Below are positions 39,595-52,249 of a stretch of DNA of 64,000 nucleotides, piece by piece; position 1 is the first letter of the stretch; the number at the start of each line of letters is the position of its first letter. Position numbers and translations under genes: made by a program. The notes below the pieces were generated by a model that was not told the origin of the DNA, did no database searches, and saw only the letters and a list, made by a program, of their open reading frames with translations. Source of the stretch: Rubrivivax sp. (GTDB taxonomy: Bacteria > Pseudomonadota > Gammaproteobacteria > Burkholderiales > Burkholderiaceae_C). The stretch is from positions 38,465-102,464 of the forward strand of contig JAJTDM010000011.1 of the NCBI GenBank assembly GCA_021300575.1, given 5' to 3'.

Positions 39595-39670
39595 GGCCAA
39601 GTAGCTCAGTTGGTAGAGCAGCGGATTGAAAATCCGCGTGTCGGTGGTTCGATTCCGCCCTTGGCCACCA
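39595..39670 (+). tRNA. tRNA-Phe (anticodon GAA)
   Basis: 76-nt cloverleaf read by hand: acceptor ggccaag/cttggcc, D-arm gctc-agttggt-agagc, anticodon stem gcgga/tccgc with loop ttGAAaa, T-arm ggtgg-ttcgatt-ccgcc, encoded CCA. Confidence 0.95.
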
Positions 39671-39680
39671 CCATTCGGAA

Positions 39681-39713: not shown

Positions 39714-39805
39714 CATTGTGGGAGTGGCGTTTTGAACGTCACTCACGCTGCTACCACTTTGCCCCCACGCTGCTGCCGCTGACAGCACAGGGCGAGGGCT
39801 GCTGA

Positions 39806-41089
39806 ATGACAGCCGCACTCAAGCAGCAAGACACTGACCGACACGCGGATAGCAACTCCGCTGCTGTGCTGTCGCTGGCCCACCAACGCAGGCTCACTGC
39901 CCTTCATTCAGCACCGCCCCACAGCGTGTCACTCCGCGACGGGGAACTGGTTGTCTATCGCCGCAACCGCAGTCTTCTCTACCAATGCCGCTACAAGTTG
40001 GCCGACGGCATTTGGGTGAGACAGACAACAGGCAAGGCCGCACTGGAACACGCCGTTGTCCGTGCCTGCGACTTGTATGACGAGGCCAGGTATAGACAAC
40101 GGCTGGGCCTCGCACACCGCACACACTCGTTCGCACACATTGCTGCTGTCTGCGTTGGTGAGTTGCGGCAACAGATAGACGTGAAGGGCAAGAAGACGGC
40201 ACTGAACGACTATGTGTCCTGTATTGAACGCTACTTCGTGCCCTACTTCGGCGAGAGGCAACTGGAGACGCTGACACGCAAGGACGTGGTGGAGTTTGAG
40301 GTGTGGCGGGACAGGCAAATGCTGCGTCGCCCAAAGACCAGCACGCTCAACAACTTCAGTTCTGCTTGGAACCGCGTCATTGCCACTGCGGTTCAACACG
40401 GCTATGTCAGCGAACGAGTGCCTGTGCCGCACCTCACCAGCAAGGGCGAGAAGGGCACGACAAGGCCTGCGTTCAGCGAGGACGAGGTGACAAAGTTGCT
40501 GGCCTTTATGGAGGAGTGGCAGCACAAGGGCAGGCTCGCAGTGGAACGCGAGATACGGCCCCTGCTACGCGACTACGTGGAGTTGCTGCTGCTGACGGGA
40601 ATGCGGCACGGCACGGAAGCAATGAACATCCGCTGGAACCACATTGAGTGGCACACGAAGGACGGTGTTCGCTACCTACGCATTTGGGTGAGCGGCAAGA
40701 CAGGCGGCAGGTGGCTCATAGCCAAGCACAGGGCGGTGGAAGTGCTCCAGCGACTACACGCAAGGCAGAAGGACATTGCGGCTATGTCGCTTGAAACGTT
40801 GTTCGCAGAGAGGGTGCCGCACCTGCTGTTCAGGTTCAGCGACGGCTACCAACCGCAGAGTCTGGTTGGCACCTTCCGCAAGTTGATGCGGGACAGCGGA
40901 CTGCTGAAGGACGGAGAAGGGAAAACCCGAACACTCTATTCACTTCGCCACACATATGCTACGTTGGAATTGTTGCGAGCGGGCACTGACATTCACACGC
41001 TGGCAAGACAAATGGGCAACTCTGCGGCAATGTTGGAGCGTCACTACAGCAAATTGACTGCGACTATGGCTGCGGAGAAGTTGGCTTGA
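39806..41089 (+). CDS. int: tyrosine-type site-specific integrase
   Basis: 427 aa. Catalytic-domain motifs LLLLTGMRHGTEA (Arg), YSLRHTYATLELL (His-x-x-Arg) and LERHYSK (Tyr). Adjacent to the tRNA attachment site. Confidence 0.9.
   Translation: MTAALKQQDTDRHADSNSAAVLSLAHQRRLTALHSAPPHSVSLRDGELVVYRRNRSLLYQCRYKLADGIWVRQTTGKAALEHAVVRACDLYDEARYRQRLGLAHRTHSFAHIAAVCVGELRQQIDVKGKKTALNDYVSCIERYFVPYFGERQLETLTRKDVVEFEVWRDRQMLRRPKTSTLNNFSSAWNRVIATAVQHGYVSERVPVPHLTSKGEKGTTRPAFSEDEVTKLLAFMEEWQHKGRLAVEREIRPLLRDYVELLLLTGMRHGTEAMNIRWNHIEWHTKDGVRYLRIWVSGKTGGRWLIAKHRAVEVLQRLHARQKDIAAMSLETLFAERVPHLLFRFSDGYQPQSLVGTFRKLMRDSGLLKDGEGKTRTLYSLRHTYATLELLRAGTDIHTLARQMGNSAAMLERHYSKLTATMAAEKLA
40936..41089 (+). repeat. 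direct repeat copy 1: the 3' end of int
   Basis: tattcacttcgccacacata...caagacaaatgggcaactctg.ggcaatgttggagcgtcactac... aligns by eye with 41873-42028, with scattered substitutions. Confidence 0.85.
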
Positions 41090-41399: not shown

Positions 41400-41573
41400 A
41401 TGAATGAGTCCGGATTATTAATGAGAATAATGAAAGTTTTCGAAGGCTTAATGAAGGGTTTTGTTGCATTTGGTTTAAGTTTTATCATTGTCGCCGCCTG
41501 TTTGCTTGGGATATTTATATTGATTGCTATCTCTATCTTGGGAGATATCCTCAAAAAGGGTATCATTTTTTAA
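41400..41573 (+). CDS. small hydrophobic protein (57 aa)
   Basis: Below the ORF-track size cut-off and translated by hand: AGGAG at 41391, ATG at 41400, MNESGLLMRIMKVFEGLMKGFVAFGLSFIIVAACLLGIFILIAISILGDILKKGIIF, stop at 41571-41573. Predicted TM segment(s). Confidence 0.5.
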   Translation: MNESGLLMRIMKVFEGLMKGFVAFGLSFIIVAACLLGIFILIAISILGDILKKGIIF

Positions 41574-41588
41574 ACACTAGGAGATTCT

Positions 41589-41849
41589 ATGAATTCAATA
41601 ATGGCCCGTCTTTTCGTTTTTATCAACGAAGTATTGTCGTTGATTGTAGTTGCTGCCAATTTCGTGATAGGCTTGGGCTTAATGGGGGAGTTTGGTATTT
41701 GGGGTGTGCTTTATCTGTTTCTGTCCACGTTGTTATTGATAATCATATTTGGTTTTGCTGCCCTATACATTGAGTCTCACAAAGCCATAATACAGATTCG
41801 TGATATATTGATGACGCACCAGACGAATTCTGATAGTGGTATCAAATAG
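41589..41849 (+). CDS. small two-TM membrane protein (86 aa)
   Basis: AGGAG RBS at 41578-41582. Two hydrophobic stretches (LSLIVVAANFVIGLGLM; VLYLFLSTLLLIIIFGFAALY). Confidence 0.55.
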   Translation: MNSIMARLFVFINEVLSLIVVAANFVIGLGLMGEFGIWGVLYLFLSTLLLIIIFGFAALYIESHKAIIQIRDILMTHQTNSDSGIK

Positions 41850-41872
41850 CTGTGGGAATTTAAGTAACCAGA

Positions 41873-42028
41873 TATTCACTTCGCCACACATACGCTACGC
41901 TTGAACTGCTGCGTGCTGGAACAGACATTCATACGTTGGCAAGACAAATGGGCAACTCTGCCGCAATGTTGGAGCGTCACTACTCAAAGTTGACTGCGAC
42001 TATGGCGGCTGACAAGTTGGCTGACTGA
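41873..42028 (+). pseudogene. orphan integrase 3'-end fragment (direct repeat copy 2)
   Basis: Encodes ...SLRHTYATLELLRAGTDIHTLARQMGNSAAMLERHYSKLTATMAADKLAD*, nearly identical in protein to the int C-terminus, with no upstream integrase coding sequence. Confidence 0.8.
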
Positions 42029-42048
42029 ATATAATATATGAGGAAGAT

Positions 42049-43212
42049 ATGGATAAGAATTTTAGTATAGAGGAGTGCGTGCTCGGAAATGACGAATTTA
42101 AAATATTCCTTGCAAATAAGTATGCGATATCCAAACACCCAACTCTGGGCGAGTATATATTCAACGATAAGTTGTATTCCTCACTAAACGATGCGTTGCT
42201 TGCGGCGAGAGCGGCTTACATTGAGGGTCGTGAAGACTTTAAGGAGGCGTCAACTAATGACTCTACCCATTTATTGGAAACGCCTCGCACGAGTTCGGAG
42301 GGAGCTGGTTTTGCTATAGGACGATTCGTGGCAGAGAGACCAAAGGTTGCGGGTGCAATCGTCGCTGGAGTCTTGGCTATATTTTCTCTCTCGGCATACC
42401 AGGTCCACGTCGAAGAAGAAAGGAGGCGGGAGCAGAAAGAAAGGAGGCAGGAGCAGGCACTGGCGAACAAACTCGGATTCGACTCGATAGAAGAAATGAA
42501 GAAACTCAATTCAATGGGTTTTGCCGATAAGACCAAGTTTCTGGATGCAGAGGCAAAGAAGCTTGGTTTTTCCACCAATGCTGAGATGAAAGAATGGCTT
42601 GCCAAAGGTGCTAAGACGGGGAAGGAAAAGGAGGAACTCATTGCGAAGGCAAAGTCACTCGGGTTTGACGGGTTTGACCAAATGCAGGAACTCCAGGCGC
42701 TGGGCTTCAATACGATGGCAGAAAAGATTGCCAAAGACAAGGCGGACGAAAAACGCGAGAGGGAGGAGGCTGTAGAGAGGGAGCGGCGTGCTGAAGCTAG
42801 TAGAGTATATACAAACCAGACAGTTTTCATTCGTATCTTGCAAACCAATCTATTTGATTTGGAATTAGCAAAAGCTAGAAATAATTCTGTGGCCGAAGGG
42901 ATGATTGAGGAGCGTCTAAAAGCAAAGGAGCTGGAGATACTTGGGGCTGAAAACTACGCGCGGAACTGGGAGTGTATTGTGTGGAGAGTGTTCAACGCGG
43001 GTTGGATTCAGTGTCTGACACAACTAGGATTAACAAAACAACCACACCTCTACTATGACCTTCGGATGAAGGCGCCATTATCCGCACAGAATGCCTCATC
43101 TCTGAATGCCGGAGAAACTCTGAGGTTTTCAGGGCGACTAAAGAAGTTTTGGGGGGCGCGCCTCGGAAATCCTACGCTTGATGTGCAAGATGCGGAAATT
43201 CAAGGCAATTAG
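42049..43212 (+). CDS. hypothetical single-pass membrane protein with five LGF-x3-4-EMK-type repeats in a charged coiled region
   Basis: GAGGAAG RBS. N-terminal soluble domain, TM helix VAGAIVAGVLAIFSLSAY, and ER/K-rich region with repeats KLGFDSIEEMKK, SMGFADKTKFLD, KLGFSTNAEMKE, SLGFDGFDQMQE and ALGFNTMAEKIA. The C-terminal domain is unrecognised. Confidence 0.7.
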   Translation: MDKNFSIEECVLGNDEFKIFLANKYAISKHPTLGEYIFNDKLYSSLNDALLAARAAYIEGREDFKEASTNDSTHLLETPRTSSEGAGFAIGRFVAERPKVAGAIVAGVLAIFSLSAYQVHVEEERRREQKERRQEQALANKLGFDSIEEMKKLNSMGFADKTKFLDAEAKKLGFSTNAEMKEWLAKGAKTGKEKEELIAKAKSLGFDGFDQMQELQALGFNTMAEKIAKDKADEKREREEAVERERRAEASRVYTNQTVFIRILQTNLFDLELAKARNNSVAEGMIEERLKAKELEILGAENYARNWECIVWRVFNAGWIQCLTQLGLTKQPHLYYDLRMKAPLSAQNASSLNAGETLRFSGRLKKFWGARLGNPTLDVQDAEIQGN

Positions 43213-43326
43213 AAGCGGACTGGTGACGGCAATGTTTGCTGCTTTTGTCGCTTATCAGTTAATTAATGGCAATCATTTTGATTACAAAATGTAGATATTT
43301 TCTTTGTAAGATCATGGAGTTTAAAA

Positions 43327-43905
43327 TTGAATATTTCTAAATTAATGATCGTGGCAATATTCTGCGTCTTTTATGGATTGCAGGCTCGAGCCCAAACCAC
43401 CCCGACAGAGCGCGGATTTAAGTCGGACTCTGAAATGAAAGCCGCATACGCACGGGGATTCTTCACGGCGAAGGACTATGAACTTTATACTATTCATGGA
43501 TTCCGAAATAGAGATGAGTTTTTGAAGTATCGAAGTTCAACTATGGAGACAAAGGCGCGCATTGTTTCAAGAAACATGGCTGTAAAAGAGGGGATAGATA
43601 ACTATCGAAGATGCTCAAGAATTTACTATGGTGTGCTTCGCTTTCTTGCGGATCAGCAAAACGATTCACAATTTAATGAATTTCAGAATGCATTTGCCCC
43701 GGTGATGGAGTTGGGTGCGATACAATTCGCAAATCAAGGCGTGAGTATTGAAGATTTCAAGGCCGATGGGTTGAAGAATTCGCCTCCATTCTCCACAGTT
43801 ATCGAAGTTAAAAGATTAACAGATGGATGGGATAATTGCCGCCAGACTTTGGAGCGTTACTGGAGTATAGTCAAGTTCGACGAATGGAAACTCACCTCGC
43901 GCTAG
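43327..43905 (+). CDS. hypothetical secreted protein sharing the GF-x-EMK-type motif
   Basis: GGAG RBS 7 nt before a TTG start. Signal peptide NISKLMIVAIFCVFYGLQARA. Motifs RGFKSDSEMKA, RGFFTAKDYEL and HGFRNRDEFLK. Confidence 0.65.
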   Translation: MNISKLMIVAIFCVFYGLQARAQTTPTERGFKSDSEMKAAYARGFFTAKDYELYTIHGFRNRDEFLKYRSSTMETKARIVSRNMAVKEGIDNYRRCSRIYYGVLRFLADQQNDSQFNEFQNAFAPVMELGAIQFANQGVSIEDFKADGLKNSPPFSTVIEVKRLTDGWDNCRQTLERYWSIVKFDEWKLTSR

Positions 43906-43926
43906 TCTCTCGAAAGAGGATGTGTA

Positions 43927-44259
43927 ATGGTTAATCTCACCGGCAATTTTCCATTTTGGCGAAGCATGGTTGCGTTGATGACAGTAATGTCTTTCACCAG
44001 TGGCGCCGAAGCGCAAATATCTGAAGCAAAGTGTAATATGTGGAGAAATGTTATGCTTCAGCAAACCATGAGTTTTCGAGAACGAGGTGTTCCTGTCGGT
44101 AATGCTGAGGAGACGTACAACAGTGAAGATGATGTAAGGACTCGGGTATTTTTGAAGCGAATAGTACGTATGGTGTATGCGGAGCCGGAAAAGTCCCGGA
44201 CATATGTTGTCAACGGTGGCTTTACTCAGGACTGCATCAAGACTCACCGTGGATACTAG
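43927..44259 (+). CDS. hypothetical small secreted protein (2 Cys)
   Basis: AGAGGA RBS. Signal-peptide-like MVALMTVMSFTSGAEA. 110 aa with no recognisable family. Confidence 0.55.
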   Translation: MVNLTGNFPFWRSMVALMTVMSFTSGAEAQISEAKCNMWRNVMLQQTMSFRERGVPVGNAEETYNSEDDVRTRVFLKRIVRMVYAEPEKSRTYVVNGGFTQDCIKTHRGY

Positions 44260-44292
44260 TATCAATCTATAATTCGTTTACTGTGTAATGAC

Positions 44293-44318
44293 AAAAAGCC
44301 CGCAAGTTGCGGGCCTTT
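44293..44318. terminator. bidirectional rho-independent terminator between convergent operons
   Basis: aaaaa-GCCCGC-aagtt-GCGGGC-c-ttt, a GC stem flanked by an A-run and a T-run. Confidence 0.65.
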
Positions 44319-44335
44319 AATTGATTATCGAGTCT

Positions 44336-45043
44336 CTACCGCATCGCTGCCTTGAGTAGGCTGGCTGTGAGAACGGCGGCTTCTTCTGCCTGTCGCTTTG
44401 CTCTCTTTGCCAATCGCAGCACAGCAAAGATTACGCTGCGGAACGAGCCAGCATTACCAGCAATGGCACTGAGAAGTTGAGTATCGCTTAAAACAACCCC
44501 TTCGTCTGCGGCAATGCGGCGAGCAAGTGGCAGAAAGTCTGTGTCAGCGGCTGCGTTCATTTCCACCAACACACACCTGTCCTTCACGCCTTTGTCTAAC
44601 TGGCTAATGTTGTTGGTTGTGAGAATGAACACGGCACGAGAGCTGTTCAGCGTAGTCTTCAGTCCTCCTTGTGCTGTTTTGTTGAGTGAATCCACTTCGT
44701 CAAAAATGTAGTAGTGGTGTCTGCTTTGATTGAACGACATGACAGACAATTGACGCTTCACTAAATCCAAAATCGGAGTGCCAGTGTGTCCTTGTTGGCA
44801 ACCGAAAAACTCCGCCTCCATCCCCAATTCCTCACCCGTTTGTGCCTTCTCAATCAAGCCAGGTAGCAATTTCGCCAATGTTGTCTTCCCTGTGCCAAAT
44901 GTGCCGTAGAGAAGAATTCCTGTCTTGCCCGAAAAAGGAATTGGCAAGTCACCGCTGACAATATCTTCAATCAGCTGCTTTGAATCCTCGTTGCCAAAGA
45001 CGAACTCAGATAGCGTTTTTGGGGTGTAGTTTATAGTGTTCAT
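44336..45043 (-). CDS. clamp-loader (RFC / T4 gp44)-like AAA+ ATPase, short form
   Basis: AAGGA RBS. N-terminal YTPKTLSEFVFGNEDSKQLIE (RFC box-like), Walker A GTFGTGKTT, Walker B YYIFDEVD, sensor-1 ILTTN, and an SRC-like DRC motif. Only 235 aa. Confidence 0.85.
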   Translation of the reverse strand: MNTINYTPKTLSEFVFGNEDSKQLIEDIVSGDLPIPFSGKTGILLYGTFGTGKTTLAKLLPGLIEKAQTGEELGMEAEFFGCQQGHTGTPILDLVKRQLSVMSFNQSRHHYYIFDEVDSLNKTAQGGLKTTLNSSRAVFILTTNNISQLDKGVKDRCVLVEMNAAADTDFLPLARRIAADEGVVLSDTQLLSAIAGNAGSFRSVIFAVLRLAKRAKRQAEEAAVLTASLLKAAMR

Positions 45044-45480
45044 TTTATTGATCCTTTATTTTGTATTGATTTAGGGTACGACAATGAAGCCAGTCGCACC
45101 CTACTGTATTGATTACGCTGCAGCCTTTTGCAGCTCGCTATAGAGTGCAGTAAGCGCAGCATTCACAGCGGTACCACTGCGGGTGAGCGCTTTTATGTGA
45201 AAACTGCCATCCGCCTGCTGCTCAGCCAGTAGTACACACTCGGTCCCCACAAATTCAGCGTCAGCCAGTTCTGCGAGACGTTGCTTTGCAATGGCGAGCG
45301 TGGGAAGCGACGTCAGCGAAGACTTGACTTCCTCTGCCTTCTGCTTGGGGCTCTTGTAGGTGGCACTCCGAGAAAGCTTCACCTCTTGTATCCCGCCCTT
45401 TTGCTCAATCCATGACGACAAGGCGCCTGGGGTTACCCCCGCGTCTTGTGCAGCGCGCAGGACAATTGAATAGGTACTGA

Positions 45481-47150
45481 GTCGGCCCTGCAAAACACCG
45501 TAAGTCCTTGTTTTAATTGATATTTCAGGGTGTTTCCGGATGGTCAGAACTCTCGAGAAGATATCCAATGGCGCTCAATTCCTGAGAGTTTTGGAGCTGA
45601 AGAGATGGCCACTGACGACTTCTTCCGCGCGCGTTTGGATGGCATGGTCGATCCCCGTCACCCGCTGGTAGTTCTCGCCAGCCGCATGCCGTGGCCGCAG
45701 ATTGAGGCCGCGCTGGCGCCGGCCTTGGCACACAAGGACCGCAAGGGCCGCACGGTGGAAGGCGCCGACATGTTCGGCCCGACGCTGTCGGTGGCCGGCG
45801 CGGGCGTGAGTGCTGCGGGCCGGCCGCGTTTGCCCATTCGGCTGATGGTCTCGCTGCTGTACCTCAAGCACGCCTTCAACGAGAGTGACGAGTCGCTCGT
45901 GCAGCGCTGGAGCGAGAACGTCGTCTGGCAACTCTTCTCCGGGCTGGAGTACTACTCGACCAAGCTTCCGTGCGACCCTGCGCAGATCAGCCGCTTTCGT
46001 AAGATCCTGGGTGAGGCCGGCGTGGAGCAACTGCTCAAGACCACCATCGAGACGGCCGTGGCCATCAAGGCGGTGAACAAGGCCGAGTTCGAGCGCGTGA
46101 TCGTGGACACCACGGTGCAGGAGAAGGCGATTGCCCACCCGACCGACTCGCGGCTGCTGGATGTGGCGCGCCGGCTTGTCGTGCGCCACGCGCAGCGCGC
46201 GGGCATCGCGCTGAAGATGACCTACGAGCGCGAGGGCAAGACGCTGCGCCGGCGCGCCGGCGGCTACGCCCACGCCAAGCAGTTCAAGCGGCTGAAGACC
46301 GTGGTCAAGCGCCAGCGCACCATCCTGGGGGTGCTGATCCGCGAGGTCACCCGCAAGATGGAGCAGATGACCACCTTGGCTGCTGACATCAAGACCAAGT
46401 TGATGACCTGGCTGGAGCGCGCCGAGCGCATCCGGACTCAGAAGACCAAGGACAAGAACAAGCTGTACGCGATGCACGCCCCTGAGGCGGAGTGCATCGG
46501 TAAAGGCAAGGCCCGCAAGCCCTACGAGTTCGGCGTCAAGGCCAGCATCGCCGTCACGCACCGCAAAGGGTTGGTGGTGGGCGCCAGGACCTTCCCCGGC
46601 AACCCGTACGACGGGCACACCATGGCCGCCCAGATCGAGCAGACCAGCACGCTGCTGGAGAACATCGGCGTCAAGCCCACCACGGCTGTGGTGGACATGG
46701 GCTACCGCGGCGTCGACGAGGATGTTCCAGCCGTGCAGGTCATCCACCGCGGCAAGGCCAAGAGGCTCACCGCCCAACAAAAGACCTGGCTGAGACGACG
46801 TCAGGCCGTTGAGCCGACCATCGGTCATCTCAAGGCCGACCACCGGATGGACCGCTGCTGGTTGAAGGGGACTGAAGGCGACGCGCTGCACGCGGTGCTG
46901 TGCGCGGCGGGGTTCAACATCCGCTGGTTGATGCGCGCCATCGCCGAGCAGGCGGCCAAGGCCGCCAAGGCGTTTGTTTTTGTCCTCTTCAGGCTGTGGT
47001 CGTGGCTGCAGATGGCGCTGGGCGGGCGCTATGCGACCATCAGACAAGCAATAAGCCCCGAAGACCAGTTCGAGCGGCGCCATGGAACGCCCGCCTTGGG
47101 TCGCTGTCAACGTATGGTCGGGGCGGCTGGGTGAATTTTGCAGGGCCGAC
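45481..47150 (+). mobile_element. IS element (IS5/IS1182-superfamily-like), 1670 bp, with terminal IRs and a 6-bp target duplication
   Basis: IRL gtcggccctgcaaaacacc (45481-) matches the reverse complement of the right end, gtcggccctgcaaaattcacc (-47150). TACTGA is duplicated at 45475-45480 and 47151-47156. The GC-rich body contrasts with the AT-rich surroundings. Confidence 0.85.
45605..47134 (+). CDS. DDE transposase of the IS
   Basis: 509 aa from MATDDFFRARLDGMVDP. DDE-region blocks VIVDTTVQEKAIAHPTDSRLL, AVVDMGYRG and EPTIGHLKADHRMDRCWLKG. The stop codon lies inside the right IR. Confidence 0.85.
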   Translation: MATDDFFRARLDGMVDPRHPLVVLASRMPWPQIEAALAPALAHKDRKGRTVEGADMFGPTLSVAGAGVSAAGRPRLPIRLMVSLLYLKHAFNESDESLVQRWSENVVWQLFSGLEYYSTKLPCDPAQISRFRKILGEAGVEQLLKTTIETAVAIKAVNKAEFERVIVDTTVQEKAIAHPTDSRLLDVARRLVVRHAQRAGIALKMTYEREGKTLRRRAGGYAHAKQFKRLKTVVKRQRTILGVLIREVTRKMEQMTTLAADIKTKLMTWLERAERIRTQKTKDKNKLYAMHAPEAECIGKGKARKPYEFGVKASIAVTHRKGLVVGARTFPGNPYDGHTMAAQIEQTSTLLENIGVKPTTAVVDMGYRGVDEDVPAVQVIHRGKAKRLTAQQKTWLRRRQAVEPTIGHLKADHRMDRCWLKGTEGDALHAVLCAAGFNIRWLMRAIAEQAAKAAKAFVFVLFRLWSWLQMALGGRYATIRQAISPEDQFERRHGTPALGRCQRMVGAAG

Positions 47151-47561
47151 TACTGACACGTCGACGGTCGACATTGCCAAATACAGCTTTGACAACACGA
47201 GTTAGCATAGGGCTCTTCTTGCTGACACGATAACCACGAAGCTCAAGAAAATCATTAAGCTCATCGTTTCTTGTTTTGCAAAATGCCGACGAATCATTCA
47301 TCTGTCCATAATCAAGACAATCTGCCAATACGGCATATAGATGCTGATTGCTAGTACGATGGGATAAACTGCTTTCCCACTGCACCCTTCTTTCTTCCAA
47401 TCGCTGTAGCAGCGATAGTGAACTGGATACGCCGGACAAACTTTGCGGATTCGCATCCACATCCTGTTGTGTATTCTCGGTGCTCACTGCCAAGCAAATG
47501 TTCCCTAATTCATCACCATCATTAGTGTCTGAGTTAGTTGTGGTCGTAACTTTCATCTCTC

Positions 47562-47620
47562 TATTCATATATATCTCCTCTAATAAATGAATATCAACGG
47601 TTTGTTGATATATATGAATA
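47562..47620 (-). promoter_or_regulatory. perfect 14-bp inverted repeat enclosing the RBS and overlapping the start codon of the IS-split gene
   Basis: tattcatatatatc (47562-47575) and gatatatatgaata (47607-47620), spaced 31 nt apart. On the mRNA the 3' arm contains the AUG and the loop contains the AGGAG. Confidence 0.5.
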
Positions 47621-47746
47621 TACATCAGTGGAATTTATTATGCAACTGAGTATATATTTTAGGGAGTAAATATGAACGCAGAATCAGAAAATGTATGATG
47701 AATGAGAACAGATGAGGATAAGTGGAAAAGTCGTTCAAAACGACAC

Positions 47747-48319
47747 TCAAACCAACTCAACTGCACGCCTCTTCATATCGTCATTGACAGTTATGTAGCG
47801 CTGCGTGGTGGCGATGCTTCGATGTCCGGCCAACTCAGCTAGCACGAACACTGAGATCCCCTGGCTCGACAGTGAAGTGAGAAAGGTCTTGCGTCCTGAG
47901 TGCGAACTCGCCCCTCGTACCCCAGCTCCTTTGTATAGCCAATAAAAGTGCTGCGCGAGGGTATTCGGGGTGAACGCACGTCGCGGACCACGCAGGGTGG
48001 GGAAAAGAGGCTGTGTCTCGTCATACCAAGTTCTGCTTTCCACCCACTCAGCCAACTCAGCATGTAGCCTGCTATTGACGTAGATGGTGCGTGCGTGCCC
48101 GTGCTTGGCACGGTCAGCAGTGAGCGCGATCTCGGTGAACACCCTGCCATCGGAGTTACGCACATCTCCTACCCTCAAACCTGCTACTTCTCCAACACGC
48201 ATCCCCGCCATCGCGGTGAGCAAGAACATGACGCGATTGCGCTGTGCATAGGCTTGTGTTGAGATGTACTCAAGCACTCGCTGTATTTCTGCTGCTGTAA
48301 GTGATTTTGCTGCTGCCAT
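47747..48319 (-). CDS. small (190 aa) catalytic-domain-only tyrosine recombinase, FimB/FimE-sized
   Basis: GGAGAG RBS and start MAAAKSLTAAEIQRVL. Motifs AMAGMRVGEV (Arg), SHSGRKTF (His-x-x-Arg) and GHRSIATTQRYI (His, Tyr). Confidence 0.85.
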   Translation of the reverse strand: MAAAKSLTAAEIQRVLEYISTQAYAQRNRVMFLLTAMAGMRVGEVAGLRVGDVRNSDGRVFTEIALTADRAKHGHARTIYVNSRLHAELAEWVESRTWYDETQPLFPTLRGPRRAFTPNTLAQHFYWLYKGAGVRGASSHSGRKTFLTSLSSQGISVFVLAELAGHRSIATTQRYITVNDDMKRRAVELV

Positions 48320-48809
48320 CGCGCTCTCCAAATAAGTGGTGTGCGAACAAGTGTGTGTTCTTTGGTACAGGTCGGACAAGAGAGTCCAGGTAATTCGGCG
48401 GGTTTCTCAGTAATCATTGAGAGTCAATGACATAGGTATTCGACCAAACACTTTGCATGTTCTCTTTGTTCTCTGTATTTAGCGCTGAAGATGAGCGAAG
48501 TCAAAGAAATAAAGCGCTACTTGAAGAAATAAGCCCTACAAGCTGGGCAACTGAGGTTCAAGCTACCCAAGCATTCGCCACGCTGTAAAAAACGTTTGTG
48601 CGCGTGATTTGGCGTTGAGCTATGCTTTATGCAGTACCGATCTGTACGCCAAAGAGCTAATTTTTCGCTGTACTATTTCTCAAAGGTGCGTAGATCTCGA
48701 CCTCTGGTGCTTTGCTCTATGTGTGTAATGAATACTTCAAAGTGAAACGACAACACTATGGCACTAGCCCATGTATTGATGGCTAGATGAAATGAAGACT
48801 CACTATCGA

Positions 48810-49343
48810 CTAACTTAAGTCCATCAACAGTGCTTGGTGTGGAATCTGTGTGTTCTCGAAATCCCAAGTATCAGCATTTCCGCGCTCGGCTTCCTTTGTT
48901 ATGTAGCTGAGCCATTTAATGTTGTTTTCAGGCGTTGCTTGCTCTATCCAAAGTCTTTCTCCACTCAAACCTGCCTTCCGTACCCAACAGTGCTCAAACA
49001 CCTTTCTCAACTCAATCATGTCTATTCCCGGCGGGATGTTGCCTATAGCAAAATTGAAGTGAATTGTGTTCTGGGAACTGTATGACTCAAAAGCACCTTC
49101 TATGGTTGTCAGTAGTAGAGGCGAGTACAGGCTTGGCTTTCTTAATGCCTTTGCCTGATATAGAGACTGACTGAATGTGCGTCTAAAATGGCGACATTTC
49201 TTCTGTGCCTCTGTACGCATACTCATAATTTGCCTGTCAGTGGCCTTGTATGTATGAAATGTCGTGTGTGCGACTGCCCAGTGCGTTATGTGTTTACTGT
49301 AACCGTTAAGGAATGATCTGATGTGATGTGCTGTAATCTTCAT
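48810..49343 (-). CDS. hypothetical protein (177 aa)
   Basis: Longest ORF in this AT-rich stretch, divergent from the 49496 gene. No clear SD sequence and no recognisable motif. Confidence 0.45.
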   Translation of the reverse strand: MKITAHHIRSFLNGYSKHITHWAVAHTTFHTYKATDRQIMSMRTEAQKKCRHFRRTFSQSLYQAKALRKPSLYSPLLLTTIEGAFESYSSQNTIHFNFAIGNIPPGIDMIELRKVFEHCWVRKAGLSGERLWIEQATPENNIKWLSYITKEAERGNADTWDFENTQIPHQALLMDLS

Positions 49344-49495
49344 ACATCTATTTAGCTAAGACCAAACAATACCATAAAAAAATATGTGAATTATGTGGAT
49401 TTGCCGAATGGGTGATGACTTGAAATCGGTTGCTCTCATCTTGCCGATGAACATAAACTGCACTCATTGCGATACTAATTTAGGAGAAAGTAGCA

Positions 49496-49936
49496 ATGGG
49501 AACACTAAGCACGCTGAAACTGACTGCTGTTCAACGACCTCAGCAACTGAGCGCCGTCCAACTGCGCCGAAACAAGTTGCTTCGACGGCTGGACGAGCAG
49601 ATGAAGCTGGCATCTGCACAGGAAGAGGGAAAGCAATTCGCTCCTCTTCGGCTGCGCACTGTGACTGACCCGGCAACGGGTAGCCGCCGCACTGTTGAGT
49701 CCAGCAAACGTGTAAAGGCTTGGTGGTTCAAACAAGAGAGCGGCAAGTTCGCACTGAGCATCCGTTACGGAGCAAAGGTGCTGGAGTTGGCAAAGGGCAA
49801 GTATGCTGTAGAGGTTGCTTCGCCGAAAGATTTGATTTCCACGCTGGAGATTGTCAAGTCTGCGGTGGAGGCAGGTGAACTGGACGGCGCAATCGAGCAT
49901 GCCGCAGGGCGCCTGCGTCAAGGGTTCAAGAAGTGA
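49496..49936 (+). CDS. conserved hypothetical protein (146 aa)
   Basis: AGGAG RBS. MGTLSTLKLTAVQRPQQLS...KAWWFKQESGKFALSIRYGAKVLEL...AGELDGAIEHAAGRLRQGFKK resembles a family seen on mobile elements of proteobacteria (possibly DUF6641, from memory only). Confidence 0.6.
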   Translation: MGTLSTLKLTAVQRPQQLSAVQLRRNKLLRRLDEQMKLASAQEEGKQFAPLRLRTVTDPATGSRRTVESSKRVKAWWFKQESGKFALSIRYGAKVLELAKGKYAVEVASPKDLISTLEIVKSAVEAGELDGAIEHAAGRLRQGFKK

Positions 49937-50030
49937 TAAGTCCGATGTTTGTCCTGAACAGCCTGGGGCGTATCAAATCGATGTGTGGTTAGCACAATTC
50001 AGACTTCGACTAATTCATGCTAAATACTTG

Positions 50031-50381
50031 ATGAAGAAGTATTTGGGACAGTTGCGTATTGGTGGGAAGATAGTGAGAACTGTTGTGTACGCAGAAAATG
50101 CAACACATGCTCGCCTTATTCTTCAATATCAATTTGGAATAGCAAGTGTTGTTGGAAATCCCTGGTTGGTAGGGGAGGAGTCTGAGGTGCAAGCCTTGTG
50201 CGATAGTTCCGCGAAACCAACTTCTCCGAAGCCTCCCATGTCTATCCCACAGTTGCGTATCAATTCGCTCAAGCAAGGCATAAAGCGTGGGAAAGAGCAA
50301 TTACGGGCAGAGCGGGATAGGCAAAAGCGACAGCGCGAGGTGATCCGTAAAAGTAATAAGAGATCGGCGTCTATTTTCTGA
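50031..50381 (+). CDS. hypothetical protein (116 aa) with a basic C-terminus
   Basis: Internal ATG (MKKYLGQLRIGGKIVRTVVYAENATHARLILQ...) within ORF 49851..50381. The upstream part of that ORF overlaps the preceding gene. Confidence 0.45.
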   Translation: MKKYLGQLRIGGKIVRTVVYAENATHARLILQYQFGIASVVGNPWLVGEESEVQALCDSSAKPTSPKPPMSIPQLRINSLKQGIKRGKEQLRAERDRQKRQREVIRKSNKRSASIF

Positions 50382-50957
50382 GTATTCCTGGTGTTTGGCA
50401 GTCGGAATGAACTTGCGTGTTAAGAAAAAGCACGATTTTTGAACAGTAAATGATCGGAAATTGCTATATCAATGCGCGTCAGATGTAAAGGGGATGACCG
50501 GCATAGCTGAAAATGTGAACTAGCGATCTGGCTGTTTTCGCTACGCTGTAATGCTGTGACAGGCATCTGACATTCTTTCCAAACTGACCACTACCAAATC
50601 TAAATTCCGGCCTGTGTGTCTTGCGACAAAATGAGAAGTCGCATTAATAAATAAGAATCGAACGAGGTGAGCTGTGAACAAAGTCCGGGATGCGTACGAT
50701 GCCTGAATACGCTGCTGCGTTTAGATAGGCTGCGGACGCTAGATAAATCGGAATAAGCCAGTATAAGACTACTTTATTCTAGGAAGAAATAGTGTCGTTT
50801 TAGGAGACAGTCGAAAGGGCAATGGGATATGCTTCAATACATTATTAGACGGTGTGAAATTGTTGCTTCGCGTTCCTCGCGTACAAAATACGCACACCAA
50901 CTTTCTACGACGCTGTATCAGCTTGAAAATCAAGTTAGAAATTGGTCTAGCAAGCGT

Positions 50958-51002
50958 TTGAAAATCCGCGTGTCGGTGGTTCGATTCCGCCCTTGGCCAC
51001 CA
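50958..51002 (+). repeat. attR: exact 45-bp copy of the tRNA-Phe 3' half
   Basis: ttgaaaatccgcgtgtcggtggttcgattccgcccttggccacca is identical to 39626-39670. Confidence 0.9.
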
Positions 51003-51025
51003 TTCCAAGGCGCCAACCGTACGCG

Positions 51026-52249
51026 ATGACCTGCCGGTTCGTTGCCACCCTTGCCCTTGTTGCGACGCTGCTGGCCGGCTGCACTACCTACCCGGTCGGT
51101 AACCGTCAGGCGGTAGGCGATTGCCCGGCCTGTGCCGCCGGCACAGTCGAACTGCCGCTGCTGCAGGGGGCGCTCTCGTATCCGATCGTGGAGGTCGCGA
51201 TCGACGGCCGGCCCGGATACCGCTTCCTGTTTGACACCGGCGCCATGGGCACGGTGATCTTCCGTCACCCCCGAACAGCCGACCTGGCGCTGTCCCCCCG
51301 TGGCGAGATCGCAGTTGGCGGCCTGGGCGATGGTGCGCGCCCGGCTGCACAGGTCGCGCCCGGGGTCGCGCTTCAACTTGGACCATTGACGCTGCGGGAC
51401 ATGACGGTACTGGTGCTGCCAGTTGATCGGCTGGCGCTGTTCGGATCGCCAGATCTGGTGTTCATCGACGGCATCATCGGCAACGACCTGTGGACCCGCT
51501 TCGGCGTGGAGGTCGATGCCGCTGCCGGGCGAATGCGCCTGCACCGCCTCGGCACTACGGATCTGGGGGCAGGTGCGCGTAGCGCCGCGCTCACAGTTCG
51601 GCACGACCACCTGTTCGTCCCGGTCCGGGTCACGCTCGATGCCAGCCGCGATCCGGTCGCCGTCGACCTGCTGCTCGACAGCGGCGACGCCGGCGCGCTG
51701 TATCTCGTGACCGACCCGGTGCGGGGACTCGTGCCGCCGGAAGGCGCAGTGACAATCGAGGGGCCCGGGATACAGGGCCAGAGCCGCGCGATGGCCGCAC
51801 GCTCAACGGCGGTCGAGGTTGCCGACGTCCGGTGGCTGAACGTCCCGACTGGCTTTGGCCCGGAGGGTTCCGGGAGCAGGGAGCTTGGTGTCGGCCTCAT
51901 CGGAGTCGGGCTGCTGTCGCGGACCCGCTGGGCGGTGGACGTCGGGCAGTCGCGGCTGTGGCTGGCACCCGGCGACGCAAGCGAGCGTCGCTTCGAGGAC
52001 GGCTCCTTCGGGCTGGCCACCGCCGTGGTGGCGCGCCGGTTGCTGGCCCTGCTCGTGCAGGCGCAGAGCCCGGCGGCGAAGGCAGGTCTGCAGGTCGGTG
52101 ACGAGTTGATCTCGCTCGACGGTTCTTCGATCACGGGCAGCCAGCAGGCCGCCGTCGAAGCGGCGCTGCAGACTCGCCGCACAGCGACGCTGTGTTGGCG
52201 CCGGGTTGACGATGTGCGCTGCGGGACCTTGACGCGAGCGGCGCCCTGA
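51026..52249 (+). CDS. lipoprotein with tandem retropepsin-like aspartic protease lobes and a C-terminal PDZ domain
   Basis: Lipobox LLAGC. Two D-T/S-G sites (FLFDTGAMGTVIF; LLLDSGDAGALYL). C-terminal PDZ-like LLVQAQSPAAKAGLQVGDELISLDG. Confidence 0.7.
   Translation: MTCRFVATLALVATLLAGCTTYPVGNRQAVGDCPACAAGTVELPLLQGALSYPIVEVAIDGRPGYRFLFDTGAMGTVIFRHPRTADLALSPRGEIAVGGLGDGARPAAQVAPGVALQLGPLTLRDMTVLVLPVDRLALFGSPDLVFIDGIIGNDLWTRFGVEVDAAAGRMRLHRLGTTDLGAGARSAALTVRHDHLFVPVRVTLDASRDPVAVDLLLDSGDAGALYLVTDPVRGLVPPEGAVTIEGPGIQGQSRAMAARSTAVEVADVRWLNVPTGFGPEGSGSRELGVGLIGVGLLSRTRWAVDVGQSRLWLAPGDASERRFEDGSFGLATAVVARRLLALLVQAQSPAAKAGLQVGDELISLDGSSITGSQQAAVEAALQTRRTATLCWRRVDDVRCGTLTRAAP

What the first reader, a model, noticed from the sequence alone, without database searches (positions are those of the whole stretch)
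44336..48319. Candidate novel three-gene module: small tyrosine recombinase, unknown 259-aa protein and clamp-loader-like AAA+ ATPase (inactivated by an IS)
All three genes are on the minus strand with short gaps (178 nt and 69 nt). Each has its own SD sequence, and the unit ends at a strong terminator at 44298-44314. The combination of a 190-aa catalytic-only tyrosine recombinase, a protein with no recognisable domain and a 235-aa RFC/gp44-like ATPase does not correspond to any system I can name. It could be a recombinase plus ATPase-helper mobility module, by analogy with IstB, TnsC or MuB helpers, or an island replication, partition or defence module. The middle gene is cleanly interrupted by an IS, which may indicate that the module is costly or counter-selected.
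Basis: partly seen in the sequence, partly recalled or inferred. Interest (0 to 1): 0.75.

Follow-up and report, generated by a model that had tools for sequence, protein, structure and literature searches.

The report
Decayed core of unnamed genomic island
The three genes are real and always travel together, but they are the damaged remains of the four-gene core of a widespread, undescribed family of small mobile DNA islands that insert next to tRNA genes in freshwater bacteria; how that core works is still unknown.

Summary
A 190-aa tyrosine recombinase with only the catalytic domain (rec), a 259-aa gene (mid) split by an IS5-family element, and a 235-aa RFC/gp44-like AAA+ ATPase lie on the minus strand with 178- and 69-nt gaps and a terminator.

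They are not a free-standing three-gene system. In about 100 related loci the order is DUF6641, rec, a 250-aa gene on the opposite strand (p250), mid, ATPase, a variable cargo slot, then an integrase beside a tRNA. This is the backbone of an unnamed family of 7-11 kb islands in Polynucleobacter, Limnohabitans and relatives. mid alone has about 980 clusters at 50% identity. mid and p250 match no Pfam family, solved structure or Foldseek target.

A 15-17-bp palindrome (TGTCGTT-N-AACGACA) is scattered at fixed places in these islands: 420 sites against 1.6 expected. A covarying inverted repeat lies upstream of rec.

The window copy is decayed. p250 is gone, one palindrome remains, mid is interrupted, and the element's own integrase is a 52-codon stub.

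My best guess, which is inference, is a module that processes the excised island: replication and multimer resolution, or mobilisation by a recombinase-like relaxase. No known defence, transposition or partition system matches.

The parts
39595..39670 (+). tRNA-Phe (GAA). Its last 45 nt (39626-39670) form the left attachment repeat of the island.
   Evidence: ARAGORN, Rfam tRNA 72 bits, repeat found by blastn.
39806..41089 (+). Intact 427-aa tyrosine integrase ('int2' type). G+C about 59%. Only about 50% identical to the integrase normally linked to this backbone.
   Evidence: ORF; phrog_1 integrase 5e-34; tblastn against the L006 integrase 49.7%.
41867..42022 (+). 52-codon C-terminal remnant of the backbone's own integrase ('int1' type).
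   Evidence: tblastn: 84.6% identity to residues 380-430 of the L006 integrase.
42049..44259 (+). Cargo slot. Three genes (387, 192 and 110 aa) for predicted membrane or secreted proteins with no assigned function.
   Evidence: ORFs. No family hits except phrog_2315 for the 110-aa protein. The same slot holds 42 different gene families in 48 relatives.
44298..44314 (.). G+C-rich hairpin followed by a T-run on the minus strand. Terminator of the mid-ATPase operon and, on the other strand, of the convergent cargo genes.
   Evidence: Sequence; terminator scan.
44336..45043 (-). 235-aa AAA+ ATPase of the clamp-loader (RFC/gp44) type. It has the ATPase base and lid domains only, with no collar domain.
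   Evidence: Pfam AAA; NCBIfam RFC 6e-16; phrog_168 1e-23. PDB RFC small subunit 1iqp 2e-7. Phage gp44-like proteins 27-32% identity. Walker A/B, sensor 1, DRC arginine finger and sensor 2 conserved in 70 distinct sequences.
45113..45475 (-). 3' part of the middle gene (mid, codons 140-259 plus stop).
   Evidence: In-frame reconstruction; tblastn to L006 mid 72%.
45480..47151 (+). IS5-family insertion sequence, 1672 bp. 16-bp perfect terminal inverted repeats; 4-bp target duplication CAGT (45476-45479 and 47152-47155). G+C about 65%, like the host.
   Evidence: Empty site in L019.
47152..47568 (-). 5' part of mid (codons 1-139). Its N-terminal 50 residues are of a type seen only in this lineage (L020, P0001).
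47649..47676 (-). Promoter-like site (TTCATA-16-TATACT) upstream of mid.
   Evidence: Consensus scan only.
47730..47744 (.). The only perfect copy left in the window of the island family's dispersed palindrome (GTCGTT-NNN-AACGAC). It starts 2 nt after the recombinase stop codon.
   Evidence: Same position in 43 of 67 relatives.
47747..48319 (-). 190-aa tyrosine recombinase (rec). Catalytic domain only, with no core-binding domain.
   Evidence: Pfam PF00589 2e-24. XerA/XerC/XerD and FimB-type models all below their cut-offs. PDB XerC-like 4a8e 1e-14. R, HxxR, H and Y conserved in 59 sequences.
48340..48489 (-). Conserved non-coding region upstream of rec. It holds an inverted repeat (48444-48469, only 4 of 7 pairs kept here), the motif TATGTCATTGA (family consensus GCTAAGTCATTGA), a second weaker hairpin, and AAAGAACACACACT.
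   Evidence: Alignments. Covariation test: 6 of 7 pairs with compensatory change, score 0.371 against at most 0.105 for slid controls.
48810..49343 (-). 177-aa ORF of unknown function. It occupies the position of a non-homologous 150-aa gene in relatives.
49496..49936 (+). DUF6641 protein (146 aa), a conserved backbone gene of the island family.
   Evidence: Pfam PF20346 1.5e-14; phrog_31551 5e-23; synteny.
50958..51002 (+). Right attachment repeat: a perfect 45-bp copy of the 3' end of tRNA-Phe. The island spans 39671-51002, about 11.3 kb, at about 45% G+C in a 68% G+C genome.
   Evidence: blastn; composition.

Best explanation
**What it is (well supported, about 0.85).** The three genes are what is left of the conserved core of an unnamed family of small (about 7-11 kb) integrative islands in freshwater Betaproteobacteria and some Gammaproteobacteria.

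The intact backbone contains:
- a tRNA-targeting integrase;
- DUF6641 and a few small ORFs;
- the block rec (tyrosine recombinase without a core-binding domain), p250 (opposite strand, with a C-terminal region that looks like a helix-turn-helix), mid and an RFC-like AAA+ ATPase. mid and the ATPase sit about 60-160 nt apart on one strand, with a terminator after the ATPase (probably one operon);
- a cargo slot between the ATPase and the integrase.

The backbone also carries two kinds of cis element: a 15-17-bp palindrome scattered at fixed positions, and a covarying inverted repeat upstream of rec.

**How it works (inference, about 0.35-0.4 for this version).** The block serves the island after the integrase has excised it.
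- p250 binds the palindromes and keeps mid-ATPase, and itself, repressed.
- mid plus the ATPase form an ATP-driven, arginine-finger-dependent oligomer. It engages DNA or the host replication machinery so that the excised circle is replicated or maintained.
- rec acts on its inverted repeat to resolve multimers of that circle.

**The window copy is a wreck.** p250 and all but one palindrome are lost. mid is cut by an IS5-family element, which probably also silences the ATPase by polarity. The backbone's own integrase is a stub. The remains now ride inside an island bounded by 45-bp tRNA-Phe repeats that carries a different integrase.

Loss of the presumed repressor p250 may have made mid-ATPase expression costly. 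That would fit two independent IS hits in mid in this lineage.
For: **Shown**
- Synteny DUF6641 / rec / p250 / mid / ATPase / cargo / integrase holds in every one of about 100 loci where the contig reaches far enough. 67 loci hold both rec and p250.
- The same block occurs in a clade whose mid is only 30-35% identical, often as tandem copies.
- Islands lie beside tRNA-Phe or tRNA-Met and are bounded by direct repeats.
- The ATPase-integrase gap ranges from 35 bp to 5.8 kb and holds 42 unrelated gene families: DNA methylases, O-acyltransferase, outer-membrane protein, RTX protease and others. The block is therefore backbone, not cargo.
- The ATPase keeps Walker A/B, sensor 1, the DRC arginine finger and sensor 2. 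rec keeps R, HxxR, H and Y.
- Palindrome: 420 sites with at most one mismatch in 739 kb, against 1.6 expected. They sit at conserved places: the rec/p250 junction in 43 of 67 loci and the 5' end of mid in 82 of 93.
- Inside mid the palindrome encodes 'VVxND'. Of 68 distinct ORFs, 65 use exactly GTC GTT..AAC GAC, although background codon use predicts about 1.4%. The constraint is on the DNA.
- Inverted repeat upstream of rec: 6 of 7 pairs show compensatory changes.

**Pointers to mechanism**
- rec-like proteins of about 190 aa on Legionella plasmids lie next to parB/repB.
- The ATPase's nearest relatives are replication clamp loaders.
- The one lineage without p250 has also lost the palindromes. 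In the ATPase the site has changed by two synonymous and one non-synonymous substitution.
- Two independent IS insertions hit mid in this lineage.
Against: - No function has been shown for any of the four proteins.
- mid and p250 have no sequence or fold relatives. Their roles as ATPase partner and palindrome binder are guesses.
- The helix-turn-helix call for p250 rests on weak hits (Sigma70_r4, E = 0.12, in 4 of 30 members) and on reading the sequence.
- No replication initiator, primase or helicase is recognisable, and no origin-like iteron cluster was found.
- An RFC-like ATPase without a collar domain has no known precedent as a replicon initiator.
- The link between p250 loss and palindrome loss rests on one lineage.
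- IS elements may simply prefer A+T-rich foreign DNA in a high-G+C host.
- Excision or circular forms were not observed, because no read data were available.
Confidence: 0.5

Rival explanations
1. **Mobilisable island with a recombinase-like relaxase.** rec is a relaxase related to tyrosine recombinases (the MOB_M class, like MobK of pIGRK, MpsA of SGI1 and TcpM of pCW3). It nicks at the conserved inverted-repeat region upstream of its gene, which acts as an origin of transfer. The excised island is then carried by the secretion system of a helper conjugative element. mid and the ATPase are relaxosome or coupling accessories.
For: - Known relaxases of this class lack both DNA-binding domains of ordinary tyrosine recombinases but keep the catalytic residues (PMC8152469). 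rec does the same.
- Their origins of transfer lie close to the gene (upstream of it in pIGRK) and contain inverted repeats (PMC6414798; PMC8152469). rec has a covarying inverted repeat followed by a conserved 13-mer about 110-130 nt upstream.
- 96% of MOB_M relaxases lie near an integrase and are often annotated as integrases (bioRxiv 10.64898/2026.01.13.699239). rec always accompanies a full-length integrase.
- The islands contain no phage-like or replication genes.
Against: - rec is clearly Xer-like: XerA model 2e-21, PDB 4a8e 1e-14. MpsA shares only about 13-15% identity with XerH and Cre.
- Homologues of rec at 35% identity lie beside par/rep genes on Legionella plasmids that already have a MOBF relaxase, which looks like resolvase duty.
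- The MOB_M profile could not be run.
- No AAA+ ATPase is known in such modules.
- No helper conjugative element was identified.
Confidence: 0.25
2. **Phage satellite.** The island is induced by a helper phage, replicates using mid-ATPase (perhaps by taking over the phage or host sliding clamp) and is packaged into helper capsids.
For: - Small size (7-11 kb), tRNA integration, tandem arrays and a cargo hotspot with surface-modifying and methylase genes all resemble P4-like elements and PICIs.
- The ATPase is closest to phage gp44 clamp loaders.
- DUF6641 and the 110-aa cargo protein match PHROG families.
Against: - No capsid, terminase, primase, AlpA or other hallmark satellite gene was found.
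- mid is absent from 50,697 phage genomes and from IMG/VR contigs.
- DUF6641 has no tblastn hit in the phage collection.
Confidence: 0.1
3. **Anti-phage defence or addiction system.** rec, mid and the ATPase (with p250 as regulator) protect the host or stabilise the island. Expression is toxic, which is why it was knocked out here.
For: - Tight operon structure. AAA+ ATPases are common in defence systems.
- Two independent IS knock-outs of mid in one lineage.
- Weak PADLOC similarities to TRIP13 and mad8 (E about 1e-3).
Against: - No significant PADLOC hit.
- The block never appears as cargo in other contexts. It is always linked to the same integrase and DUF6641 backbone, while the real variable slot lies beside it.
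- Conservation of order over a 30% identity range with element-wide cis sites is typical of element core genes.
Confidence: 0.07
4. **Invertible switch.** rec is a FimB/FimE-like invertase. It flips the roughly 0.9-kb segment between the palindrome after rec and the palindrome in the 5' end of mid. That segment carries p250, the mid promoter and the mid start codon, so flipping turns mid-ATPase on or off.
For: - The layout mirrors fimE-fimS-fimA: a small recombinase without a core-binding domain lies immediately upstream of a segment flanked by inverted, palindromic sites.
- The FimB-type model NF007370 gives 5e-10.
Against: - None of 67 loci shows the segment in the other orientation.
- The same palindrome also occurs at four or five other fixed places in the island.
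- Hexamer arms only 3 bp apart leave no room for the usual 6-8-bp crossover region.
- The score is far below the family cut-off: 39 bits against 221.
Confidence: 0.04

Closest known systems
tRNA-integrating genomic islands and integrative mobilisable elements (such as SGI1-type IMEs and P4-like or PICI satellites)
   Same: Integrase next to a tRNA gene; direct repeats of part of the tRNA; low G+C in a high-G+C host; tandem accretion; a conserved backbone plus a variable cargo slot.
   Different: None of the backbone genes other than the integrase belongs to a family used by those elements. There is no relaxase of a classical family, primase, Rep, AlpA, capsid or terminase gene. The backbone instead has two proteins of unknown fold, an RFC-like ATPase and a second, minimal tyrosine recombinase.
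[quoted passage not shown]
   Same: Catalytic domain of a tyrosine recombinase without the core-binding and arm-binding domains; catalytic residues retained; inverted repeats in the non-coding DNA upstream of the gene; a separate integrase close by.
   Different: rec is much closer to Xer recombinases than the known members are. No MpsB-like helper was recognised. Membership could not be tested because the profile was not available. No nicking or transfer data exist.
Small Xer/FimB-like tyrosine recombinases of plasmids (about 190 aa, such as those next to parB/repB on Legionella plasmids)
   Same: Same length and domain make-up; 35-46% identity; encoded on mobile replicons.
   Different: Those are not linked to mid, p250 or the ATPase. 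Their function is also only inferred from context.
Clamp-loader AAA+ ATPases (archaeal and eukaryotic RFC small subunits, phage T4 gp44, bacterial DnaX/HolB)
   Same: Alignable over the whole AAA+ base and lid (residues 3-228). Walker A/B, sensor 1, the SRC-type arginine finger (DRC here) and sensor 2 are all present.
   Different: Only 235 aa, so it lacks the C-terminal collar domain that holds clamp-loader pentamers together. Scores are far below every family cut-off. No sliding-clamp gene and no gp62-like or delta-like partner. The partner gene mid has no fold match, including to gp62 in PDB entry 3u5z.
KorB operators of IncP plasmids and chromosomal parS sites
   Same: A short palindrome repeated at dispersed, conserved positions over a whole replicon, sometimes inside coding sequence.
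   Different: No ParB/KorB or ParA homologue is encoded. The sequence is unrelated. This is a resemblance in layout only, recalled from general knowledge and not tested.

Membership tests
Tyrosine recombinase superfamily (Pfam PF00589) | Catalytic domain scoring above the Pfam gathering cut-off | tested here: met
   86.5 bits against a cut-off of 27.1, residues 6-180.
Tyrosine recombinase superfamily (Pfam PF00589) | Catalytic residues R, HxxR, H/W and the Y nucleophile | tested here: met
   R41, H129-x-x-R132, H166 and Y174 are at least 95% conserved in 59 distinct family members.
Tyrosine recombinase superfamily (Pfam PF00589) | N-terminal core-binding domain, as in ordinary recombinases | tested here: not met
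   The protein starts at the catalytic domain. It aligns to residues 102-273 of XerC-like 4a8e and to positions 94-259 of the XerA model.
XerC/XerD/XerA recombinases | Score above the NCBIfam equivalog cut-off | tested here: not met
   XerA 76.5 against 220; XerC 60 against 335; XerD 54 against 330 bits.
FimB/FimE-type DNA invertases | Score above the NCBIfam subfamily cut-off | tested here: not met
   NF007370 39.4 bits against 221.
FimB/FimE-type DNA invertases | An adjacent segment flanked by inverted repeats and found in both orientations | tested here: not met
   Palindromes flank the p250 segment, but 0 of 67 loci have it inverted.
Recombinase-like (MOB_M) relaxases | Tyrosine-recombinase catalytic domain without core-binding or arm-binding domains, with catalytic residues retained | tested here: met
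   Criterion taken from PMC8152469.
Recombinase-like (MOB_M) relaxases | Inverted-repeat-bearing non-coding region next to the gene (origin of transfer) and an integrase close by | tested here: met
   Covarying inverted repeat 110-130 nt upstream. An integrase is in every island. This is compatible with membership but not specific to it.
Recombinase-like (MOB_M) relaxases | Score of at least 84 bits with the CONJscan MOB_M profile; site- and strand-specific nicking; requirement for transfer | not testable with these tools
   The profile and the reference sequences (AAS55463.1, AAK02039.1, ABC96296.1) were not available. pIGRK is not in the plasmid collection.
Clamp-loader (RFC/gp44/DnaX) AAA+ ATPases | AAA+ module with Walker A, Walker B, sensor 1, SRC arginine finger and sensor 2 | tested here: met
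   GTFGTGKTT, IFDEVD, LTTNN, DRC and GSFR are conserved in 70 sequences. Aligned to RFC small subunit 1iqp over residues 44-228.
Clamp-loader (RFC/gp44/DnaX) AAA+ ATPases | C-terminal collar domain that assembles the pentamer | tested here: not met
   235 aa in total. Matches stop at about profile position 220-240 of models 314-413 positions long.
Clamp-loader (RFC/gp44/DnaX) AAA+ ATPases | Score above the family cut-off, and partner clamp or other loader subunits encoded nearby | tested here: not met
   Best score 58 bits against 280. No clamp or second loader subunit in any island.
Transposition helper ATPases (IstB, TnsC/TniB, MuB) | Match to the family model and a partner transposase within a transposon bounded by terminal repeats | tested here: not met
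   No IstB, TniB or MuB model appears among 18 Pfam or the 25 best of 51 NCBIfam hits. The only transposase is the unrelated IS5 element that interrupts mid. Relatives have none.
Known anti-phage defence systems (PADLOC v2) | Significant match of the component proteins | tested here: not met
   Best E-values are 7e-4 (TRIP13) for the ATPase, 0.02 for mid and 0.005 for rec. The library dates from 2023.
Phage satellites (P4-like, PICI, cfPICI, PLE) | Hallmark genes (primase/replicase, AlpA, capsid or packaging genes) or presence in viral sequence collections | tested here: not met
   No such domains. mid is absent from phage genomes and IMG/VR.
tRNA-integrating genomic island | Integrase beside a tRNA gene, direct repeat of part of the tRNA at the far end, and deviant composition | tested here: met
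   tRNA-Phe 39595-39670; integrase 39806-41089; 45-bp perfect repeat at 50958-51002; 45% against 68% G+C.
IS5 family (the interrupting element) | Transposase above the family cut-off, terminal inverted repeats and a short target duplication | tested here: met
   NF033578 519 bits against 275. 16-bp perfect inverted repeats. 4-bp CAGT duplication, with an in-frame gene after its removal.

The most novel reading that the evidence does not exclude
The collar-less RFC-like ATPase and its partner mid (an unmatched fold) form a new kind of element-encoded DNA-loading machine. It is targeted or regulated through a palindrome scattered over the whole island, in the way ParB/KorB systems use dispersed sites. 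It would drive a so far unknown way of replicating, maintaining or transferring a new class of tRNA-integrating islands that is abundant in freshwater bacterioplankton. A minimal tyrosine recombinase would serve as its nicking or resolving enzyme.
Probability: 0.2. Interest if true: 0.85.

Novelty: new variant of a known kind. Interest (0 to 1): 0.6.

Why it matters
**Size and ecology.** mid alone has about 980 clusters at 50% identity (545 and 805 hits in two searches). The islands sit in some of the most abundant freshwater bacteria, Polynucleobacter and Limnohabitans.

**What the cargo does.** The islands shuttle genes that alter the cell surface and methylate DNA, that is, traits relevant to phage and grazer interactions.

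**What is unknown.** The backbone is built from proteins with no described relatives. Two of its four core proteins match no known family or fold. A third is a replication-type ATPase stripped of the domain that normally assembles it. The fourth belongs to the class of minimal tyrosine recombinases, some of which have recently been recognised as hidden relaxases.

**What could be learned.** Working out this module could reveal how a whole class of 'immobile-looking' genomic islands moves. It would also give functions to DUF6641 and to two large orphan families. The dispersed palindrome and the covarying repeat upstream of rec give direct experimental handles.

For the window itself the result is more modest: it holds a decayed, probably non-functional copy.

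Tried and rejected
**Homology and fold searches that found nothing**
- mid and p250 against Pfam, NCBIfam, PHROGs and PADLOC, including 48 distant mid relatives and relaxed thresholds.
- Profile searches of PDB sequences.
- AlphaFold2 models: mid pLDDT 70 with a confident helical core at residues 48-195; p250 pLDDT 80. Foldseek against PDB (both models) and BFVD (mid only) gave a best E of 0.18-1.4.

**Collection searches**
- mid against phage genomes, plasmids and IMG/VR: no match.
- Rfam scan of the whole island: only the tRNA.

**A lead that failed**
- Azospirillum plasmid pAB510d has a 46%-identical rec followed by a 253-aa gene on the opposite strand and a 481-aa gene. I suspected a p250 homologue and a mid-ATPase fusion. 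Profile comparison showed no relationship.

**Ideas tested and dropped**
- That the missing p250 was removed by recombination between the two flanking palindromes. Rejected because the window has about 310 nt of unrelated sequence, with a new promoter and a new N-terminus of mid, rather than a clean site-to-site junction.
- That the palindrome is a transcription terminator. Rejected because it has a 6-bp A+T-rich stem, no T-run, and often lies inside coding sequence.
- The Pfam TrwB_AAD_bind hit of the ATPase (29 bits, a 60-residue stretch around Walker B). I treat it as generic P-loop similarity, not as evidence for a coupling protein.

**Not obtainable**
- pIGRK, for a direct comparison with MobK: not in the collection.
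- Literature searches for DUF6641, clamp-loader-like ATPases in islands, and freshwater tycheposons found no description of this family.

Full report
**1.
The window is a 68% G+C genome with a 45% G+C stretch at about 41-51 kb. On the minus strand lie three genes:
- a 190-aa ORF at 47747-48319, called rec here;
- a split ORF, called mid;
- a 235-aa ORF at 44336-45043.

The split is caused by a 1672-bp element at 45480-47151. It has perfect 16-bp terminal inverted repeats, host-like G+C, and an IS5-family transposase (NF033578, 519 bits against a cut-off of 275). Removing it and one copy of the 4-bp duplication CAGT joins 47568-47152 to 45475-45113 as one 259-aa reading frame.

A 93%-identical metagenome contig (L019) is uninterrupted at exactly this point.

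**2. Where it sits.**
tRNA-Phe lies at 39595-39670. Its last 45 nt recur perfectly at 50958-51002. The genes therefore lie inside an 11.3-kb island with a 427-aa integrase at its left end (39806-41089).

**3. The three genes belong to a larger conserved unit.**
- The reconstructed mid protein has 545 relatives in the 5.8-billion-protein collection. All are unnamed and none has a Pfam domain.
- A profile search of 50%-identity representatives finds 984 clusters.
- I examined 100 loci: 8 from genomes (Polynucleobacter, Oxalobacteraceae, Dechloromonas, a Methylococcaceae MAG), 80 from lake metagenomes and 12 from protein look-ups.
- The gene order is nearly invariant: DUF6641(-), a few small ORFs, rec(+), a 250-aa gene on the opposite strand (p250), mid(+), ATPase(+), a variable stretch, then a roughly 430-aa integrase(-) beside tRNA-Phe or tRNA-Met.
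- 67 loci hold both rec and p250. mid is followed by the ATPase wherever the contig continues.
- A clade whose mid is only 30-35% identical (Limnohabitans and others) keeps the same four-gene block, DUF6641 and an integrase. Two copies often lie in tandem.
- p250 has 445 relatives, again all unnamed.

**4. Backbone, not cargo.**
The distance between the ATPase and the integrase varies from 35 bp to 5.8 kb. In 48 loci it holds 42 unrelated gene families: DNA methyltransferases, an AT3/SGNH acyltransferase, an outer-membrane protein, a flagellin fragment, an RTX metalloprotease, GNAT enzymes and many unknowns. In the window this slot holds three predicted membrane or secreted proteins (42049-44259).

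So rec, p250, mid and the ATPase are fixed and the genes beside them are exchangeable. mid is absent from 50,697 phage genomes, 72,556 plasmids and IMG/VR.

**5. The proteins.**
- **ATPase.** It aligns over its whole length with RFC small subunits, DnaX and phage gp44 (NCBIfam 6e-16, phrog_168 1e-23, PDB 1iqp 2e-7, phage proteins 27-32% identical). Walker A, Walker B, sensor 1, a DRC arginine finger and sensor 2 are conserved in 70 distinct sequences. It ends after the lid domain and lacks the collar that assembles clamp loaders. All scores are far below family cut-offs. A conserved trans-acting arginine implies that it works as an oligomer.
- **rec.** It is a catalytic-domain-only tyrosine recombinase (Pfam 86.5 bits) with R, HxxR, H and Y conserved. 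It is closest to Xer-type enzymes. Similar proteins of about 190 aa are common on plasmids: 907 records, for example next to parB/repB on Legionella plasmids.
- **mid.** The model has a disordered N-terminus, a confident helical core (residues 48-195) and a small beta hairpin.
- **p250.** The model is mostly helical. Its confident C-terminal domain reads like a helix-turn-helix, but only weakly by profile.
- Neither model has a Foldseek match, and neither family has a PDB or Pfam relative.

**6. Two cis elements, found in passing, that probably matter most.**

(a) **A dispersed palindrome**, T-GTCGTT-NNN-AACGAC-A.
- It occurs 420 times (at most one mismatch) in the 739 kb of related loci, against 1.6 expected.
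- There is a median of 4 per island.
- Positions are conserved: 2 nt after the rec stop codon (43 of 67 loci), in or just before the first 20 codons of mid (82 of 93), at about 80% of the ATPase gene, at the ATPase/integrase junction, after DUF6641, and inside the integrase gene.
- In mid it encodes 'VVxND'. Of 68 distinct ORFs, 65 use exactly GTC GTT..AAC GAC, where background codon use predicts about 1.4%. The DNA is under selection, not the peptide.
- Distant clades keep TGTCGT...ACGACA with changed inner bases.
- Hexamer half-sites 9 bp apart centre to centre suit a dimeric helix-turn-helix protein.

(b) **A conserved non-coding region of about 170 nt upstream of rec.**
- It begins with an inverted repeat of 8-15-nt arms and a 5-12-nt spacer. 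The arms differ between clades but stay complementary: 85.7% paired, 6 of 7 pairs with compensatory change, covariation score 0.371 against at most 0.105 for slid controls, 0 of 500 shuffles as high.
- It is followed by GCTAAGTCATTGA, a weaker second hairpin, and AAAGAAAACACACT.
- In one clade a third arm copy abuts the rec ribosome-binding site.
- The geometry is that of a tyrosine-recombinase core site or the inverted repeat of an origin of transfer.

**7. The window copy is decayed.**
- It is the only locus with room for p250 that lacks it. The rec-mid interval is 178 nt of unrelated A+T-rich DNA with a new promoter-like site and a new N-terminus of mid. That N-terminus is shared only with L020 and P0001.
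- Only one perfect palindrome remains (47730-47744). The site inside the ATPase has drifted by two synonymous and one non-synonymous change.
- The inverted repeat upstream of rec keeps 4 of 7 pairs.
- The integrase type that normally accompanies this backbone survives only as a 52-codon C-terminal fragment (41867-42022, 85% identical to the L006 integrase). The intact integrase at 39806-41089 is about 50% identical and has a higher G+C.
- In relatives such as L007 the backbone sits on the 5' side of tRNA-Phe, bounded by a 57-bp repeat that includes the 5' half of the tRNA. A second, int2-like integrase gene lies on the 3' side. The window therefore looks like a chimera, in which remains of an int1-type element lie inside an int2-type island.
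- mid is cut by the IS here. In L019 it is cut by a different, IS21-type element about 80 bp away.

**8. Mechanism.**
Shown: a conserved, element-bound four-gene block with intact catalytic motifs and element-wide cis sites. Everything beyond that is inference.

My preferred reading is that the block acts after excision:
- p250 binds the palindromes as a repressor or organiser;
- mid and the ATPase form an ATP-dependent complex that recruits or loads replication machinery on the circle;
- rec resolves multimers at its inverted repeat.

This fits the replication ancestry of the ATPase, the plasmid context of rec homologues, and the joint loss of p250 and palindromes. It also suggests why mid was knocked out twice, namely derepression after loss of p250. 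I give the backbone claim about 0.85 and this specific mechanism about 0.35-0.4.

The main rival (about 0.25) is that rec is a relaxase related to tyrosine recombinases.
- MobK, MpsA and TcpM likewise lack both DNA-binding domains.
- The origins of transfer of pIGRK and SGI1 lie close to the relaxase gene, and that of SGI1 carries inverted repeats.
- 96% of such relaxases sit near an integrase.
- Sources: PMC8152469, PMC6414798 and bioRxiv 10.64898/2026.01.13.699239.

I could not run the MOB_M profile. The satellite, defence and invertible-switch readings are weaker, for the reasons given under rivals.

**9. Comparison and novelty.**
In kind this is a tRNA-integrating genomic island, which is ordinary. 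In content its backbone matches no described element. I found no paper on DUF6641, on this gene block or on such islands in Polynucleobacter or Limnohabitans. I therefore rate it a new variant of a known kind, with a one-in-five chance that the mid-ATPase-palindrome system is mechanistically new.

**10. Limits.**
- There were no read data, so excision, copy number and orientation could not be checked.
- The metagenome contigs are short.
- PADLOC dates from 2023.
- The p250-palindrome link rests on one lineage.
- Structure models were built from alignments of moderate diversity.

Noticed in passing
window 47730-47744; related loci L001-L104 (for example L006 922, 3329, 4261, 7191): A 15-17-bp palindrome (TGTCGTT-N-AACGACA) is scattered at conserved positions through the whole island family: 420 sites against 1.6 expected. 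It also occurs inside three different coding sequences, where codon choice shows that the DNA is under selection. The window keeps a single copy.
   Followed up: yes
window 48340-48489 (-), inverted repeat at 48444-48469; alignment A5: A conserved non-coding region upstream of the small recombinase holds an inverted repeat whose arms covary between clades, followed by a conserved 13-mer. It looks like a recombinase core site or an origin of transfer.
   Followed up: yes
window 41867-42022 (+): A 52-codon C-terminal fragment of a second integrase, 85% identical to the integrase that normally accompanies this backbone. The island is a chimera of two integrase lineages. A small 86-aa membrane-protein ORF (41589-41849) lies between the intact integrase and the fragment.
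   Followed up: partly
window 39665-39752 and 52408-52495 (similarity continues to about 52535): The 88 bp that follow tRNA-Phe, and then the leader of the integrase gene, are repeated (91%) 1.4 kb to the right of the island's right end. No integrase ORF follows the second copy. It is probably the scar of an older tandem island. A high-G+C 418-aa ORF (50993-52249) lies in between, and a HipA-like ORF (53326-54687) follows.
   Followed up: partly
L019 1-663 (corresponds to window position about 47234): In a 93%-identical relative the same middle gene is interrupted by a different insertion sequence, whose end carries an IS21-type IstB, about 80 bp from the window's IS site. The window's own site is empty there.
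   Followed up: partly
L007 744-800 and 9114-9170; L007 9451-10122: tRNA-Phe is used from both sides. The usual form of this island inserts on the 5' side and duplicates 19 nt of upstream sequence plus the 5' half of the tRNA. A second integrase type occupies the 3' side, which is the arrangement seen in the window.
   Followed up: partly
L016, L102, L103, L104: Two copies of the backbone (rec, p250, mid, ATPase with DUF6641) lie in tandem in several genomes and contigs. This suggests repeated integration at one site.
   Followed up: no
window 42049-43212 (+) and L006 5765-6877 (-): In different islands, the cargo gene next to the ATPase (window) or filling the whole ATPase-integrase slot (L006) encodes a protein with tandem short 'xLGF(D/T)xxxE/K' repeats after a hydrophobic segment. 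The two are not detectably homologous by BLAST. Function unknown.
   Followed up: no
L106 (Azospirillum sp. B510 plasmid pAB510d, 434862-437713): A 46%-identical small recombinase is again followed by a roughly 250-aa gene on the opposite strand and then a 481-aa gene. Neither neighbour is related to p250 or mid by profile comparison.
   Followed up: yes
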